Of a stretch of 64,000 nucleotides of DNA, positions 13,034 through 23,666 are shown piece by piece (within the stretch, counting starts at the first letter, position 1; every line of letters begins with the position of its first letter). The position numbers and the translations under genes were made by a program. The notes below the pieces were generated by a model. It saw only the letters and a list, made by a program, of their open reading frames with translations, had not been told where the DNA came from and searched no databases. The stretch is taken from NCBI RefSeq assembly GCF_029227855.1, contig NZ_CP074356.1. One strand, given 5' to 3'. The DNA comes from Escherichia coli (GTDB lineage Bacteria > Pseudomonadota > Gammaproteobacteria > Enterobacterales > Enterobacteriaceae).

Positions 13034-13109
13034 TCCTCTGTAGTTCAGTCGGTAGAACGGCGGACTGTTAATCCGTATGTCACTGGTTCGAGTCCAGTCA
13101 GAGGAGCCA
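13034..13109 (+). tRNA. asnW: tRNA-Asn (GUU); island integration site
   Basis: Identical 76-nt tRNA-Asn on plus strand; integrase remnant lies immediately 3'. Confidence 0.9.
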
Positions 13110-13270
13110 AATTCAAGTTTTCATGCTTATCTGTACGTCTCTATTTGTTTACGATTCAGTAAGTTAGCGTGAAAATCCTTCCCGGTGCGTATCTGGTTTT
13201 CTCTCTGTATCGGGATAATTTGGTGGTCAGATCTGGGGTCAGTTTGGTTCGATTCTGGAGTGACCCCCAA

Positions 13271-14532
13271 ATGTCTTTAAACGATTCTAAAATCCGCAAG
13301 TTAAAACCCTCTTCCCGTCTGGTAAAACTCTCCGACTCTCACGGTCTGTATCTGCTCGTCAATCCGGGCGGTTCACGCATCTGGTATCTCAAATATCGTT
13401 TCAACGGAAAAGAATCCAGAGTCAGTCTTGGCGCATACCCGCTTGTCTCACTGGCAGAAGCCAGGCAACAGCGCGACGGTATCCGTAAGTTACTGGCGCA
13501 GAATATCAACCCGGCGCAGCAGCGCATGGCGGAGAAAGCGGCCTGCTCCCCTGAAAAGTGCTTTAAGGCAGTGGCGCTGGCCTGGCACAAAACCAACAAA
13601 AAATGGTCGGCTGATTATGCCGCCCGTATTCTCGCCAGTATGGAAAACCATATCTTCCCGGCGATTGGTCATCTGCCAGTTGCCACTCTTAAAACGCAGG
13701 ATTTACTGCTTTGTTGCGGGTTATCGAGGATAAAGGCTTTCTGGAAGTCGCGTCCCGAACCCGGCAGCAACTCAGCAACATCATGCGCTATGCCGTTCAG
13801 CAGGGGCTTACCGAAAGCAATCCGGCGCAGCATCTGGATGGCGTTGTCGCCTCACCCGTAAAGAATCACTACCCCGCGTTACTGCTGGAGCGGTTGCCCG
13901 AACTGCTTGGCCGCATCGGTGACTATCAGCAGGGCCGGGAGTTAACACGGCTGGCGGTGGTGCTGACGTTGCACCTGTTTATCCGTTCCAGCGAACTGCG
14001 TTTCGCCCGCTGGAGCGAGATCGATTTCAGGCACAAAATCTGGACCATCCCCGCCACCCGCGAGGCAATCGACAAAGTACGGTTTTCGGGGCGTGGCGCA
14101 AAAATACGTACCCCGCATATCGTGCCGCTCTCCCGCCAGGCGATTGCCATTCTGAAACAGATACAGGAGCTTTCCGGCCATCTGGATCTGGTGTTTCCCG
14201 GTGATCATAACCCGTACAAGCCAATGAGTGAAAACACCACCAACCGGGCGCTACGCCTGATGGGGTATGATACGAAAACTGAAATCTGCGGGCATGGACT
14301 CAGGGCGATGGCCTGTAGCGCCCTGGTGGAGTCGGAGCTGTGGTCACGCGATACGGTGGAGCGGCAAATGAGCCACCAGGAGCGTAACAGCGTGCGGGCA
14401 GCCTATGTGCATAAAGCGGAGCATCTGGAGGCCAGAAAGGCCATGATGCAGTGGTGGTCGGATTATCTGGATGTGTGCCGCGAGGGGTATGTTGCGCCGT
14501 ACATTTATGCCCGGCAGCATAAGGCAGCCTGA
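13271..14532 (+). pseudogene. P4-type tyrosine integrase, disrupted by frameshift near 13705-13715
   Basis: Two overlapping track ORFs (13169-13861 and 13711-14532) together span one integrase-length gene; the second continues the first after a -1/+1 shift. Confidence 0.75.
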
Positions 14533-14649
14533 ATCAGAAATAACGGAAATCATTAAAAATGTAAAAGCAGATCCTGATTGACCGGGATCTGCTTATTGTA
14601 TTGAGAAGTATTACCATTTTTCTGTTATTATCAATCGGAAAGTATCTAA

Positions 14650-15130
14650 AAATATTTGGCCCCAAATAATTTTGGTGAAAACCAATCAATAAACCATTTA
14701 TCAATAGGTAAGTACCGGAAATTATTCCAGTAGAATATTTTCAGGCGATTGCCTATTAATAAATACATTATTGATAGATAAGTGCCTTCTGTGATTTGTC
14801 CGCAAATCACAGAAGATGAAAACCTATCAATACGGGATATTTTCACGGAAATACCAATTAATACTCCAGAATATCTCCTGACCATATACTCTGAAACCTG
14901 TAAGAACTGCATCAGATATTGAGAGACCATATAGATATAAGTCTGAAATTATTTTGTTTCCAATGATTTCAGGCGAAAACCTATCAATGCATCTGTTTTC
15001 AATAGGCAGCCACCTTCCGTGATTAACATGTTAATCACGGAAGGTGAAAAGCTATCAATAATCGATATTTTCACGGAATTACCACTTAATACATCCCAAA
15101 AAATGCGCCATAAAATACCGGGCAATCTTT
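14650..15130. repeat. Iteron-like repeat array: two ~80-bp direct repeats, each a 26-30-bp palindrome plus a conserved 45-bp box, with extra TATCAATAGG half-sites
   Basis: Unit A (about 14797-14877) and unit B (about 15014-15098) share TGAAAA(C/G)CTATCAATA...GATATTTTCACGGAA(A/T)TACCA(A/C)TTAATAC; palindromes TCTGTGATTTGTCCGCAAATCACAGA and CTTCCGTGATTAACATGTTAATCACGGAAG. Confidence 0.6.
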
Positions 15131-15869
15131 CCTGATACACATTATCACTGCACCAGCTATACAGAGACAAAATAATCTGCACCAGCCCCTGTAAATCGGT
15201 TATTTGTGCCAGTGTCCCGCCGCTCTACCTGTTCAGGGTTGTGCCAGTTTCTGGCCCTTTGGTTTTCGGCCCTTTCCGGTCAGGCGCTGTTACCCTTATT
15301 GCCCCTTAACCTTTATGACCCTTTCCCTTTCTGACGCAACCAGTTTATTTTGAAATGCTCCATGACAGTCTGCACCAGACTGTATTTTCACCACAGGATA
15401 ACGATCACAAAGTGCAAAAAAATAACATGAAGCACCGAAGATTGTTAATCTATATGTAGCAGGTAATGATGTCAAAAACTGTCGCAGCATTTTTTATAAA
15501 ATTATGAGACATTCTGTGGGCATATAATATATGTCACAAGATGCAGGAAAACAAAGAGAGAGTTTTCAGATATAATCCTGCGTTAGAATTAATGTGATGC
15601 CCCGGTGAATTTACATTTTAAAATTTCCCTGTCCCGTAATATCGGTAAAAACGATTGAAACACCAACTATTAATCGGGAACGTCTCGAGTGATTACAGGG
15701 TAATCACTATAATATCCCGGCAAACTATATTGGTTAAGCAGGAGAATCTGATCAGTTGATATTTATTCGTCATGCTGTAACGATATTTTCACAATATAAA
15801 CCCGTTCGCCCCCTGCGCCAGATCCGGTACAGAGGGTACGATAAATCGCTGTCGTTACGCAGTAACGTA

Positions 15870-21500: not shown

Positions 21501-22174
21501 ACAGCCAGCACCGCCTGGTGTTCTACACGCGGATACAGCATGGAGAGCCACTGGTCGAGAGCCGCTACCTCTACGACCCGCTGGGACGGCGAATGGCGAA
21601 AAGGGTATGGCGGCGGGAGCGTGACCTGACGGGGTGGATGTCGCTGTCGCGTAAACCGGAGGAGACATGGTACGGGTGGGACGGCGACAGGCTGACGACG
21701 GTGCAGACTGACACCACGCGTATCCAGACGGTGTACCAGCCGGGAAGCTTCACGCCGCTCATCAGAATCGAAACAGACGTGACCGAACTGGAGAAAGCGC
21801 AGCGGCGAAGCCTGGCGGAGAAGTTACAGCAGGAAGGGAGTAAAGATGGTCACGGCGTGGTGTTCCCGCCTGAACTGGTGCGGCTGCTGGACAGGCTGGA
21901 GGGGGAAATCCGGGCAGACCGTGTGAGTGACGAAAGCCGGGCGTGGCTTGCGCAGTGCGGGCTGACGGTGGAGCGGCTGGCGGCACAGATCGAGCCAGTT
22001 TATTTGCCTGAGCGAAAAATACATCTTTATCACTGCGACCACCGGGGACTGCCGCTGGCGCTTATCAGTACTGAAGGTGCAACGGAATGGCGTGGGGAGT
22101 ATGACGAGTGGGGGAATCAGCTTAATGAGGAGAACCCGCATCATCTGTTCCAGCCATACCGCCTGCCGGGGTAG
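18572..22174 (+). CDS. rhs: Rhs-family protein, N-terminal and YD-repeat core portion, ending at an in-frame TAG
   Basis: 1200-aa ORF; N-terminus [11 protein letters not shown]...[10 protein letters not shown] and many YD repeats; ends YRLPG-TAG at 22172-22174 where the core normally continues into the conserved QYDxESG...DPIGL junction. Confidence 0.85.
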
Positions 22175-22753
22175 CAGTACGATGATGAATCGGGGCTGTG
22201 CTATAATCGTTATCGTTACTACGAGCCGTTACAAGGGAGGTATATTACACAGGACCCGATTGGGTTAAATGGGGGGTGGAATTTATATAAATATCCGCTG
22301 AATCCAATAAATTATGCAGATCCTCTTGGCTTAGCCGTAGATATAAACCACTTCCCAGTCAACGAAGACATACGAAATTATGCAGAGAAAGTTTGGAATA
22401 ATCCTAATATCATTACAATTGGAACACATGGTGATCCTCAATCAGTATATGATGAAAATTATAATAAGATAGATGTCAAGACATTAGCTAATGAGGTTCG
22501 AAATCATCCTAAATTTAAACCTGGAATGTCAGTAAGACTGTTATCCTGTAATACAGGAAAAGGAAATAACTCTTTTGCACAGCAATTGGCAGATGAACTA
22601 GGTGTGAGAGTCTATGCTCCTGACCAATATGACTGGTACTATTCAAATGGTAAGGTAGAGCCTTGGGGAGGATTCTATGATGCAAACAATCAATTGCAAA
22701 TGGACACGAATCAGCCTGGACATGAGTTTACATTCAAGCGAAGGAAACCATAG
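22175..22753 (+). pseudogene. Rhs C-terminal segment (DPIGL junction plus ~150-aa variable toxin domain) separated from core by in-frame stop
   Basis: Same frame as the core; reads [53 protein letters not shown] then an AT-rich unique domain; no start codon of its own until 22526. Confidence 0.7.
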
Positions 22754-22755
22754 GT

Positions 22756-23358
22756 ATGAGGTATTTTCTCTTTATATTTATAACAATCCCCCTTATCTCT
22801 GGAGGTCATATGAGTAATGATAGCGAAAAGATAATATCAACATATTCGCTCAATTTTTTATCACCAGATGATGTGAGGAAAGAAGAACTTAAGGCATCAC
22901 AAGGTGATAGTGATGCTGCATTTAAATTGTACAAATATTACCTTTTTTGCGAGCCAAAATCATACAGAAAACAGCACGAATGGTTAATAATATCGGCAAA
23001 TAATGGAAATGCTATAGCTCAATATAACTTATCAAGAGAACTTGAGTCAGAAGGAAAAGTAGATGAATCAATACAATGGCTGAAAAAATCAGCGGAACAT
23101 GGTAATAATTATGCACAATATCAGATATCAAAATATTTATTAAAAATAGGTGATATTAGAGGATCGGAATATTATCTAAACTTATCTGCGGATAACGGAT
23201 GTGTATTTGCAATAAAAGATATTATCAAAAATATGATGGATAGTGGAAGGTACGATGACGCCCTCATTTGGGTTGAAAAATTGAAAAAATTGTATCCTGA
23301 CACAAATACCGAACTTTACATACAAAAAATAACGCAGAAAAAAAAGCAATCCAAATAA
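22756..23358 (+). CDS. Sel1-repeat protein; putative cognate immunity protein of the Rhs C-terminal toxin
   Basis: Starts 2 nt after the toxin stop; alternative start at 22807 has a strong GGAGG RBS; Sel1-like repeats (GNAIAQYNL..., GNNYAQYQIS...); AT-rich. Confidence 0.6.
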   Translation: MRYFLFIFITIPLISGGHMSNDSEKIISTYSLNFLSPDDVRKEELKASQGDSDAAFKLYKYYLFCEPKSYRKQHEWLIISANNGNAIAQYNLSRELESEGKVDESIQWLKKSAEHGNNYAQYQISKYLLKIGDIRGSEYYLNLSADNGCVFAIKDIIKNMMDSGRYDDALIWVEKLKKLYPDTNTELYIQKITQKKKQSK

Positions 23359-23646
23359 TAATTATATATAATTACTCGCACAGAGTTACAGTATTGCAAG
23401 AAATATATCTAGCATATAAAGTCGCCGCCAGTAAAGATAAAGTACTGTGTAATCCTTCCTCCCATATAGGGGTAAAAACTTAGCATCCAGTGCCCTCGAC
23501 TTAATTTTTAGTATTTTCTCTGTGAAGTGACACTTCGTAGGATTCAGTTCATGTTTACCAGAAAAAAGGTGGTCATTCTGGTGGTCTTGACAATCTCGAT
23601 TTTTTGTTTTAGCTTTCCAATCAGCCAATTAATGGCTACGGCGATC

Positions 23647-23666
23647 CCAGTCAGAGGAGCCAAATT
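23647..23666. repeat. attR-like direct repeat of tRNA-Asn 3' end
   Basis: CCAGTCAGAGGAGCCAAATT matches the asnW 3' end (about 13094-13113); marks distal island boundary. Confidence 0.6.

What the first reader, a model, noticed from the sequence alone, without database searches (positions are those of the whole stretch)
13034..23666. Decayed tRNA-Asn island with remnants of two different recombinases
The island at asnW is bounded by a ~20-bp direct repeat of the tRNA 3' end. It holds a frameshifted P4-type integrase next to the tRNA and, 2 kb away on the opposite strand, a second truncated tyrosine recombinase, suggesting serial insertions and decay. A 39-codon hydrophobic ORF (about 23551-23670, MFTRKKVVILVVLTISIFCF...) runs into the attR-like repeat. 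The other three tRNA-Asn copies in the window are unoccupied.
Basis: partly seen in the sequence, partly recalled or inferred. Interest (0 to 1): 0.6.

Follow-up and report, generated by a model that had tools for sequence, protein, structure and literature searches.

The report
Decayed asnW island carrying Rhs toxin

Summary
tRNA-Asn (asnW, 13034-13109) is followed by an island (13114-23666) bounded by an exact 20-bp direct repeat. Removing it in silico recreates the asnW-yeeN junction found in 4969 of 5426 complete E. coli genomes.

The two recombinases are not relics of serial insertions. They belong to one conserved backbone: P4-type integrase, palindrome-bearing spacer, PF12834/PF12835 recombinase preceded by an EFASI RNA, Ner-like HTH, a 153-aa protein, and a C4-type antisense RNA with its targets. 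The same backbone sits at asnT, asnV and asnW in other E. coli, and at tRNA-Phe in Klebsiella and, without Int2/EFASI, in Dickeya, with variable cargo (T6SS parts, defence systems).

Here the cargo fills half the island: an Rhs core protein with a caspase-like (CPD-like) cysteine-protease toxin tip, plus a Sel1-repeat immunity gene.

This copy has four lesions: a -1 frameshift in the integrase, two deletions in the second recombinase, a truncated HTH, and a private TAG stop in rhs.

The 39-codon ORF lies on the conserved attR arm and is probably not a gene.

Verdict: an ordinary decayed island and a new member of a known kind. The backbone and the toxin family are uncharacterised.

The parts
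13034..13109 (+). tRNA-Asn (asnW), the integration target
   Evidence: ARAGORN; Rfam tRNA 72.6 bits
13094..13113 (+). attL core: 20-bp direct repeat formed by the tRNA 3' end
   Evidence: Exact match, 0 expected by chance
13271..14532 (+). Int1: P4-family tyrosine integrase pseudogene, with a 1-nt deletion after 13704
   Evidence: NCBIfam PRK09692 and PHROG integrase hits on both halves. Alignment to the intact WP_000055685.1. Annotated 'frameshifted' in the near-identical genome.
14533..15869 (.). AT-rich non-coding spacer between the convergent recombinase genes. It holds two about 131-nt repeats and three palindromes GTGATT-N7/8-AATCAC (14791-14810, 15019-15038, 15689-15707).
   Evidence: Three sites found against 0.04 expected, conserved in E. 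coli relatives. Function unknown.
15896..16487 (-). Int2: remnant of a Phage_int_SAM_2 + Integrase_1 (PF12834/PF12835) tyrosine recombinase, with two internal deletions and a frameshift
   Evidence: Comparison with intact 294-aa homologues; Pfam on the intact homologue; annotated 'frameshifted'
16543..16670 (-). EFASI RNA motif, 55 nt upstream of the Int2 start codon
   Evidence: Rfam RF02957, 100.8 bits against a gathering score of 51.2. The same position relative to Int2 is seen in 4 relatives; the motif is absent where Int2 is absent.
17404..17592 (-). Ner/SfsB-like HTH_35 regulator gene, C-terminally truncated (62 aa; lacks the conserved WPSRY tail)
   Evidence: NCBIfam SfsB 6e-26, PHROG repressor; comparison with 73-84-aa homologues
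17589..18050 (-). ORF153: intact conserved 153-aa protein of unknown function, the first gene downstream of the C4 RNA
   Evidence: 196 homologues across Enterobacterales, nearly all 153 aa. No Pfam, NCBIfam, PHROG or PADLOC family. The model is a generic 4-helix bundle.
18062..18099 (-). Putative a2/b2 targets of the C4 RNA, 12-49 nt upstream of the ORF153 ATG
   Evidence: 7-nt complements of the two C4 loop segments, in the same order as upstream. Each run alone is not significant.
18104..18192 (-). C4-type antisense RNA (P1 c4 / P4 CI class)
   Evidence: Rfam RF01695, 62.2 bits against a gathering score of 45; present in all five relatives scanned
18214..18289 (-). isrK-like / a1-b1 target region upstream of C4
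   Evidence: Rfam c4-a1b1 43.8 bits (GA 46.7) and isrK 45.5 bits (GA 50), both just below threshold here and above it in relatives. 10-nt and 7-nt complements to the C4 loops.
18572..22174 (+). Rhs core gene, ended prematurely by TAG at 22172-22174 (CAG in relatives)
   Evidence: NCBIfam RHS_core 2477 bits (cut-off 2000). Pfam DUF6531, RHS repeats, RHS. PDB Tse5 5.5e-100. The stop is private to this sequence.
22175..22753 (+). Rest of the rhs reading frame: the Rhs-associated core end (DPIGL, DPLGL) and a 139-aa toxin tip (22334-22750) with a caspase-like/CPD-like fold
22756..23358 (+). Sel1/TPR-repeat protein, the presumed cognate immunity gene (annotated start 22810)
   Evidence: PDB Sel1/TPR matches down to 8.6e-13; annotation in relatives; AT-rich tip
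23560..23646 (+). Conserved right-end arm of the island family (attR arm), containing GGTGGTC twice
   Evidence: Conserved in islands at asnW, asnT and asnV whatever the cargo. A similar motif sits in the left arm at 13221-13245; that motif is not significant on its own.
23647..23666 (+). attR core: second copy of the 20-bp repeat
23551..23670 (+). The 39-codon hydrophobic ORF of the finding; probably a chance reading frame over the attR arm

Best explanation
Positions 13114-23666 are a 10,553-bp integrative genomic island that entered the 3' end of asnW by site-specific recombination. The enzyme was its own P4-family integrase (Int1), and the event duplicated 20 bp of the tRNA as attL and attR.

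The island belongs to a conserved Enterobacterales family with a fixed backbone. The backbone consists of Int1, a palindrome-bearing spacer, and a leftward operon. On the minus strand the operon reads: promoter region, a1/b1 targets, C4-type antisense RNA, a2/b2 targets, ORF153, a Ner-like HTH, EFASI RNA, and a second tyrosine recombinase (Int2, PF12834/PF12835). A variable cargo follows.

By analogy with P1 c4 and P4 CI, the C4 RNA would pair with the target sequences that flank it. This would keep ORF153 and the genes behind it, including Int2, switched off until the pairing is relieved. This step is inferred.

The cargo here is a polymorphic-toxin module. It comprises an Rhs cage protein of the T6SS-delivered class, a C-terminal 139-aa tip that is a clan-CD (CPD/caspase-like) cysteine protease with a His-Cys dyad, and a Sel1-repeat immunity gene. 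In strains with an intact copy it would serve contact-dependent competition (inferred).

In this strain the element is a fossil. Int1 is frameshifted, Int2 has two deletions, the HTH gene has lost its C-terminus, and rhs carries a private nonsense codon 53 codons before the core/toxin boundary. The island therefore cannot move by its own enzymes and cannot deliver its toxin. The immunity gene, ORF153, C4 and EFASI remain intact.
For: Boundaries and insertion. The 20-bp repeat is exact. The empty site is present in 4969 of 5426 genomes, and at least 80% of the island is present in only 183. GC content is foreign: a 57-65% core and a 32-37% tip.

Int1. It gives integrase-family hits and has a single-base deletion relative to an intact homologue. 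Relatives carry different nonsense mutations at codon 177 and codon 370. It shares 73-76% nucleotide identity with integrases at asn tRNA genes in other strains, including the one at asnW in UPEC 536. [quoted passage not shown]

One backbone. The same gene order is found at asnV, asnT and asnW and at tRNA-Phe in Klebsiella (with Int2) and Dickeya (without Int2). C4 is present in 5 of 5 relatives. EFASI is present only where Int2 is present. Rfam describes EFASI as lying upstream of integrase genes (quoted in PMC12370729).

C4 pairing. The loop segments GUCAGUGAGG and AGGCUAA have complements both upstream and just before the ORF153 ATG.

Cargo. NCBIfam RHS_core scores above its cut-off. The closest solved homologue is the T6SS effector Tse5. 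The toxin fold and catalytic dyad are supported. The Sel1 immunity assignment rests. The CT-immunity-attR block is contiguous in 91 genomes.

Lesions.
Against: No experiment shows excision, integration, RNA expression, toxicity or immunity.

Presence of a T6SS and a matching VgrG in this genome was not tested. A PAAR domain at the Rhs N-terminus was not detected by Pfam, and only a weak match (E 0.8) to the tail of a PAAR protein was seen.

The toxin tip has no Pfam hit of its own. The related T6SS proteins Tce1 and Tce2 appear to be anti-eukaryotic and lack immunity genes (PMC13323088), so an antibacterial role is not certain.

The roles of Int2, EFASI, ORF153 and the spacer palindromes are unknown. 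The downstream C4 target matches are short and not significant individually. The TAG in rhs is a single base seen in no other genome and could be a sequencing error.
Confidence: 0.85

Rival explanations
1. One reading: two unrelated elements, each with its own recombinase, inserted one after the other at asnW and then decayed.
For: Tandem accretion does happen at this site. Strain W4 (L005) has an internal copy of the att arm at 23590-23685, followed by a second element with radical-SAM and DUF6375 genes. The two recombinases belong to different families.
Against: There is no att copy between Int1 and Int2, or anywhere else inside the island. The Int1-spacer-Int2 block is colinear at 86-92% identity in islands at asnT, asnV and asnW. 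Int2 with EFASI also accompanies a different P4-type integrase at tRNA-Phe in Klebsiella.
Confidence: 0.05
2. The island is a degenerate P4-like phage satellite. The C4/CI-type RNA is its immunity factor, and a helper phage once induced and packaged it. The Rhs module sits in the satellite's accessory hotspot.
For: The island has a P4-family integrase at a tRNA and a C4-class RNA. Annotators label the homologous stretch 'ash family protein', PF10554 Phage_ASH. The Ner-like repressor matches a PHROG. Relatives carry defence cargo (type I R-M plus DarTG; AbiE, TacAT), as P4-like hotspots do.
Against: No psu, sid, delta or alpha primase, nor any other P4 gene, was found in the window or in the intact relatives. 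ORF153 is absent from 50,697 phage records apart from one unannotated 1.5-kb record. Int2 and EFASI are not P4 features.
Confidence: 0.15
3. The Rhs module is not original cargo. It was grafted onto a pre-existing small island by recombination with another rhs locus.
For: Homology to the other rhs genes of E. coli starts at or 19 bp before the rhs start codon (query 5654/5673 = window 18553/18572). The core has a GC content unlike the backbone. Sister islands carry other T6SS items in the same place: tssF, tssG, vgrG and PAAR in one; DUF2169 and RHS in another.
Against: This concerns history, not present function, and is compatible with the main explanation. The Rhs-bearing form is the commonest one (183 of the 266 genomes that have the backbone). 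It is also found at asnV, so the Rhs module has travelled with the island.
Confidence: 0.25
4. The 39-codon ORF (23551-23670) encodes a real small membrane peptide.
For: The frame is open in 4 of 5 island right ends, and the peptide is hydrophobic.
Against: The conserved block starts after the ATG, and start codons differ or are missing in the other copies. One copy is frameshifted. One copy has V->E, I->E and C->R changes inside the hydrophobic stretch. The last 7 codons are dictated by the tRNA-derived core. No family hit was found.
Confidence: 0.1

Closest known systems
pks (colibactin) island and Yersinia HPI: P4-type-integrase islands at asn tRNA genes of E. coli
   Same: Both have a P4-family integrase next to the tRNA and direct repeats made of the asn tRNA 3' end. 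Both can occupy asnT, asnU, asnV or asnW, and both tend to become fixed by decay (PMC8209727). Int1 is 73-76% identical in DNA to integrases at asn tRNA genes in other strains, including the one at asnW in UPEC 536.
   Different: The cargo is an Rhs toxin, not a siderophore or polyketide. The size is 10.5 kb rather than 30-54 kb. This island has an additional backbone (C4 RNA, ORF153, Ner-like HTH, EFASI, Int2) that is not described for those islands.
E. coli Rhs elements (rhsA-E of K-12) and T6SS Rhs effectors such as Tse5 of P. aeruginosa
   Same: The GC-rich core (NCBIfam RHS_core above cut-off) is about 84% identical in DNA to rhsD. It has DPxGL motifs, an AT-rich variable toxin tip and an adjacent immunity gene.
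   Different: It sits inside a tRNA-integrated mobile island rather than at a chromosomal rhs locus. The tip is a CPD/caspase-like protease rather than a nuclease or pore-former. The gene is interrupted by a stop codon here.
CPD-type cysteine proteases (Peptidase C80 of MARTX and TcdA/TcdB) and the T6SS effectors Tce1/Tce2 (DUF4347) of P. aeruginosa
   Different: The domain is much smaller (139 aa). It gives no Pfam C80 or DUF4347 hit itself. It is fused to an Rhs cage rather than loaded in Hcp, and it is followed by a Sel1 immunity-like gene, whereas Tce1 and Tce2 have none.
P1 c4 / P4 CI antisense-RNA immunity modules and Salmonella IsrK loci
   Same: The Rfam C4 match is above threshold. 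It is flanked by sequences complementary to its two loop segments and is followed by the regulated ORFs.
   Different: The downstream genes (ORF153, Ner-like HTH, EFASI, Int2) are not icd/ant or P4 replication genes, and the element has no phage or satellite structural genes.
EFASI RNA motif (Rfam RF02957)
   Same: It is a full-length match at 100.8 bits, located immediately upstream of an integrase gene as the family description says.
   Different: No STAXI motif accompanies it here. The integrase behind it is a pseudogene.

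Membership tests
tRNA-integrated genomic island | Inserted at the 3' end of a tRNA gene and flanked by direct repeats of that end | tested here: met
   Exact 20-bp repeat at 13094-13113 and 23647-23666
tRNA-integrated genomic island | Absent from most conspecific genomes, with a precise empty site | tested here: met
   Empty junction in 4969 of 5426 genomes; island in 183
tRNA-integrated genomic island | Integrase gene adjacent to the tRNA, and deviating base composition | tested here: met
P4-family tyrosine integrase (Int1) | Arm-binding N-terminal domain plus Phage_integrase catalytic domain | tested here: met
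   Both halves match NCBIfam PRK09692 and PHROG integrases. Each half scores below the curated cut-off because the gene is split. An intact 420-aa homologue exists.
P4-family tyrosine integrase (Int1) | Intact reading frame and catalytic R-H-R-Y residues | tested here: not met
   -1 frameshift after 13704. The catalytic residues were not inspected individually.
Integrase_1 / Phage_int_SAM_2 recombinase (Int2) | PF12834 N-terminal plus PF12835 catalytic domains | tested here: inconclusive
   The intact homologue meets both (E 8e-39 and 6e-60). The window copy has lost 33 aa and about 66 aa, including the HSLRY box.
Rhs core protein | NCBIfam NF041261 above cut-off, YD/RHS repeats, and a C-terminal Rhs-associated core ending in DPxGL | tested here: met
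   2477 bits against a cut-off of 2000. Repeats found. DPIGL and DPLGL are present in the frame after the stop.
T6SS-delivered PAAR-Rhs effector | N-terminal PAAR domain | tested here: inconclusive
   No Pfam PAAR hit. Residues 2-29 resemble the tail of PAAR protein 4jiv at E 0.8.
T6SS-delivered PAAR-Rhs effector | A T6SS with a cognate VgrG in the same genome, and secretion dependent on it | not tested
   Only 64 kb of the genome is available, and there are no T6SS genes in the island. Sister islands carry vgrG, tssF, tssG and PAAR.
Polymorphic toxin-immunity module | A variable C-terminal tip after a conserved core, followed directly by a small immunity gene; toxicity neutralised by that gene | tested here: inconclusive
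   The architecture is met: relatives diverge after about 22305-22333, the tip is AT-rich, and a Sel1 gene starts 2 nt after the stop. Toxicity and neutralisation cannot be tested here.
Clan CD cysteine protease (Peptidase C80 / DUF4347-like) | Caspase-like fold with a His then Cys catalytic dyad | tested here: met
Clan CD cysteine protease (Peptidase C80 / DUF4347-like) | Sequence membership of Pfam PF11713 or PF14252 | tested here: not met
   No hit for the query. Only 1 of 55 relatives matches C80 at E<=0.001 (5 at E<=0.1), and 3 match DUF4347 at E<=0.1.
C4 antisense RNA module | Rfam RF01695 above the gathering score, with complementary a/b targets flanking it | tested here: met
   62.2 bits against 45. 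The a1/b1 and a2/b2 complements are present. The c4-a1b1 model scores 43.8 against 46.7, just below threshold.
EFASI RNA | Rfam RF02957 above the gathering score, upstream of an integrase gene | tested here: met
   100.8 bits against 51.2; 55 nt from the Int2 ATG
EFASI RNA | A STAXI motif a few hundred bp upstream (frequent, not obligatory) | tested here: not met
   No STAXI match even at E<=10
P4-like phage satellite | psu, sid, delta, alpha primase-helicase and alpA/vis, in addition to the integrase and the CI ('ash') region | tested here: not met
   Only the integrase and the C4 RNA are present. No such genes appear in the window or in intact relatives.

The most novel reading that the evidence does not exclude
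The conserved backbone is not just island baggage. It comprises a P4-type integrase of varying tRNA specificity, a C4-type RNA switch, ORF153, a Ner-like HTH, EFASI RNA and a PF12835 recombinase, plus palindromic GTGATT-N7/8-AATCAC sites in the spacer. On this reading it defines an undescribed class of minimal, RNA-switched mobile elements. These would possibly be phage-responsive. They would shuttle defence systems and T6SS weapons among Enterobacterales, with Int2 and EFASI forming a second, dedicated recombination system that acts on the spacer palindromes.
Probability: 0.2. Interest if true: 0.6.

Novelty: new member of a known kind. Interest (0 to 1): 0.3.

Why it matters
For this window, the result turns an "interesting decayed island" into a fully explained and ordinary feature: an immobilised asn-tRNA island whose weapon is disarmed while its immunity gene survives.

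Three by-products may be useful more widely:
- EFASI, an orphan Rfam motif, is tied strictly to one recombinase family (PF12834/PF12835) inside a recurrent island backbone that is controlled by a C4-type RNA.
- That backbone carries T6SS or anti-phage cargo in several genera. This makes it a convenient marker for finding such cargo.
- The Rhs tip is a compact CPD/caspase-like protease domain with over a thousand homologues and an adjacent immunity-like gene. It is a candidate antibacterial protease toxin family that Pfam does not model.

Tried and rejected
- **Toxin tip, sequence searches.** Pfam, NCBIfam and a PDB sequence search gave nothing on the toxin tip itself. The word-indexed protein search found only two near-identical fragments. 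The exhaustive search and the structure prediction were needed.
- **STAXI and other RNA families.** None was found between the HTH gene and EFASI or in the Int1-Int2 spacer; only hairpin noise appeared.
- **EFASI leader.** A terminator/antiterminator reading of the EFASI leader was considered. The fold is no better than shuffled sequence (z = -0.9), so it was dropped.
- **GGTGGTC as an arm-type integrase site.** It is present near both ends, but the motif count in the window is only about twice the chance expectation. It is kept as an inference only.
- **Promoter scan.** The scan of 15.8-18.7 kb was no better than shuffles.
- **Literature.** Searches for asnW plus Rhs, for PF12835, and for yeeO/yeeN islands found no description of this island.
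- **P4-like satellite and serial insertion.** Both were tested and rejected as the primary reading (see the rival explanations).

Full report
**Setting.** The window is the E. coli asn-tRNA region in reverse K-12 orientation. The gene order is ldtA, asnV (8801-8876, -), nac, cbl, asnU (11210-11285, -), yeeO (11293-12933, +), asnW (13034-13109, +), the island, yeeN (24114-24830, -), amn, shiA, yeeL, yeeJ (29674-37731, -) and asnT (37969-38044, -).

The 20-mer CCAGTCAGAGGAGCCAAATT occurs five times: at the 3' end of each of the four tRNA-Asn genes and once more at 23647-23666. None is expected by chance. I joined 12700-13113 to 23667-24400 in silico. This artificial empty site aligns in one piece to 4969 of 5426 complete E. 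coli genomes, the best at 99.5% identity. Only 183 genomes hold at least 80% of the island. The other three asn genes abut their normal neighbours and have no extra att copy.

**The two recombinases.** Int1 (13271-14532) matches P4-type integrases in both halves. It differs from an intact 420-aa homologue (WP_000055685.1, strain O145 RM10425) by loss of one C after 13704. Sister islands carry different inactivating mutations: nonsense at codon 177 in two strains and at codon 370 in a third. The integrase has therefore been lost at least three separate times.

Int2 (15896-16487, minus strand) is a remnant of a 294-aa protein with Phage_int_SAM_2 and Integrase_1 domains. The window copy has an in-frame 33-aa deletion. 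A second deletion of about 66 aa shifts the frame and removes the HSLRY box.

**Serial insertion is not supported.** The block Int1, 1.3-kb spacer, Int2 is colinear at 86-92% identity in islands at asnV (L002), asnT (L004, L006) and asnW (L005). In Klebsiella pneumoniae the same Int2 (66% identical) lies next to a different P4-type integrase at tRNA-Phe. There is no att copy between the two genes in the window. In strain W4 a genuine second element has been added in tandem at asnW, and there an internal copy of the att arm marks the joint.

**A conserved backbone with two structured RNAs.** Rfam finds an EFASI RNA at 16543-16670 (-), scoring 100.8 bits against a gathering score of 51.2, 55 nt upstream of the Int2 start codon. 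It also finds a C4 antisense RNA at 18104-18192 (-), scoring 62.2 against 45. The C4 RNA is preceded by an a1b1/isrK-like target region at 18214-18289, which scores just below threshold here and above it in relatives.

EFASI stands for 'Enterobacteriaceae, Frequently Around STAXI and Integrases'. It is described as lying upstream of integrase genes, with unknown function (Rfam text quoted in PMC12370729). In five relatives, C4 is always present. EFASI is present in the four that have Int2 and absent in Dickeya, which lacks Int2.

The two C4 loop segments, GUCAGUGAGG and AGGCUAA, have complements upstream at 18226-18235 and 18245-18251. They also have complements at 18093-18099 and 18062-18068, the nearer one 12 nt before the ATG of ORF153. 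This is the layout of the P1 c4 switch.

Behind C4 lie ORF153 (17589-18050) and a Ner/SfsB-like HTH gene (17404-17592). ORF153 is intact. It has 196 homologues across Enterobacterales, almost all 153 aa long, and no known family. The HTH gene has lost its conserved WPSRY tail in this strain.

In Dickeya the cargo next to this backbone is a type I R-M system plus DarTG. In Klebsiella it is AbiE, TacAT and DUF4747. In E. coli O145 it is tssF, tssG, vgrG and PAAR. In W4 it is DUF2169 and an RHS protein.

The element lacks every P4 satellite gene other than the integrase and the RNA, and ORF153 is not found in phage genomes. I therefore do not file it as a P4-like satellite.

An Rhs core gene starts at 18572 (NCBIfam RHS_core 2477 bits, cut-off 2000). 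It has DUF6531, RHS repeats and the RHS domain. The closest solved homologue is the T6SS effector Tse5 at 5.5e-100. Composition is the classic Rhs pattern: a core of 57-65% GC and a tip of 32-37% GC.

In the near-identical genome JNEC-KY178 the gene is a 1393-aa ORF ending at 22753. The window has T instead of C at 22172, which changes CAG to TAG 53 codons before the DPLGL core/toxin boundary. None of the 5426 genomes has this base, and 140 have the same 61-mer with that single difference. It is a private mutation or a sequencing error.

The 139-aa tip (22334-22750) has no Pfam hit but has 1268 homologues in the exhaustive search. These include tips of other large toxins and giant proteins with 3-6 copies. 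His32, Gly33 and Cys72 are invariant. A few relatives weakly match Peptidase_C80 and DUF4347.

Here a Sel1-repeat gene (22756 or 22810 to 23358) follows 2 nt after the stop codon. This is the position of an immunity gene. The tip, the Sel1 gene and the att arm are contiguous in 91 genomes.

**The 39-codon ORF.** The last roughly 100 bp of the island (23560-23666) are conserved in every island variant, whatever the cargo and whichever asn gene is used. The sequence to its left is unrelated between variants. The ORF's ATG lies outside the conserved block. One copy is frameshifted, another has charged substitutions in the hydrophobic stretch, and the final codons are fixed by the tRNA-derived core. 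It is best read as the attR arm. That arm contains GGTGGTC twice, and a similar pair lies in the left arm, but this motif is not significant on its own.

**Mechanism, with status.**
- Shown by sequence: the insertion at the tRNA with target duplication; the conserved backbone; the Rhs, toxin and immunity architecture; and the four lesions.
- Inferred from the named families: Int1 catalysed integration; C4 represses ORF153 and downstream genes by pairing; the Rhs protein is delivered by a T6SS and releases a protease toxin that the Sel1 protein neutralises.
- Unknown: the roles of Int2, EFASI, ORF153 and the three spacer palindromes GTGATT-N7/8-AATCAC. Three palindromes are found against 0.04 expected, they are conserved in relatives, and changes are compensated on both arms.

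[quoted passage not shown] I found no paper that describes this particular island. The backbone and the toxin family are uncharacterised, which gives it modest interest.

Noticed in passing
window 14786-14815, 15011-15046, 15689-15707: Three palindromes GTGATT-N7/8-AATCAC (arms up to 18 bp) lie in the non-coding spacer between the convergent recombinase genes. Three are found against 0.04 expected in the whole window. They are conserved in E. coli relatives, and differences between sites are compensated on both arms. Two of them sit in about 131-nt direct repeats. They may be protein-binding or recombination sites; their function is unknown.
   Followed up: partly
L005 (E. coli W4) 23590-30465: A second element is added in tandem after an internal copy of the att arm. 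It carries a radical-SAM protein, a DUF6375 protein and a 1352-aa hypothetical protein, and could be an uncharacterised defence system. The same strain lacks nac, cbl and asnU, apparently through recombination between asn tRNA genes.
   Followed up: no
window 39036-64000: A lambdoid prophage appears to be integrated next to tRNA-Ser (39036-39125). Rfam finds DicF (43550-43601), sok (49234-49404), phage-type tRNA-Met and tRNA-Arg (52694-52951) and STnc100 (53648-53837).
   Followed up: no
window 3258-4582: STnc230 sRNA (3258-3341) and a cobalamin riboswitch (4408-4582) lie upstream of cobUST. They are in the same order as in strain W4, where pduF and pocR are annotated. This suggests that pdu/pocR genes are present in this strain.
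   Followed up: no
window 16939-17403: Relatives L005 and L006 carry a HigA antitoxin gene between EFASI and the HTH gene. The window has about 300 bp of different sequence there, including a near-perfect 20-bp-arm GC-rich hairpin at 17254-17297, and the HTH gene is cut short at this joint.
   Followed up: partly
window 16488-16560: Just 3' of EFASI, CUCCGGCGU...ACGCCGGAG can pair and is followed by a U-rich run before the Int2 start. Its 5' arm lies inside EFASI, hinting at a cis-acting leader. The fold is no more stable than shuffled sequence (z = -0.9).
   Followed up: partly
L006 (E. coli O145 RM10425) 16463-23790: A sister island at asnT carries only tssG and tssF plus vgrG, two hypothetical genes and a PAAR gene. 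This is a partial T6SS set travelling on the same backbone, and it has the only intact Int1 seen.
   Followed up: no
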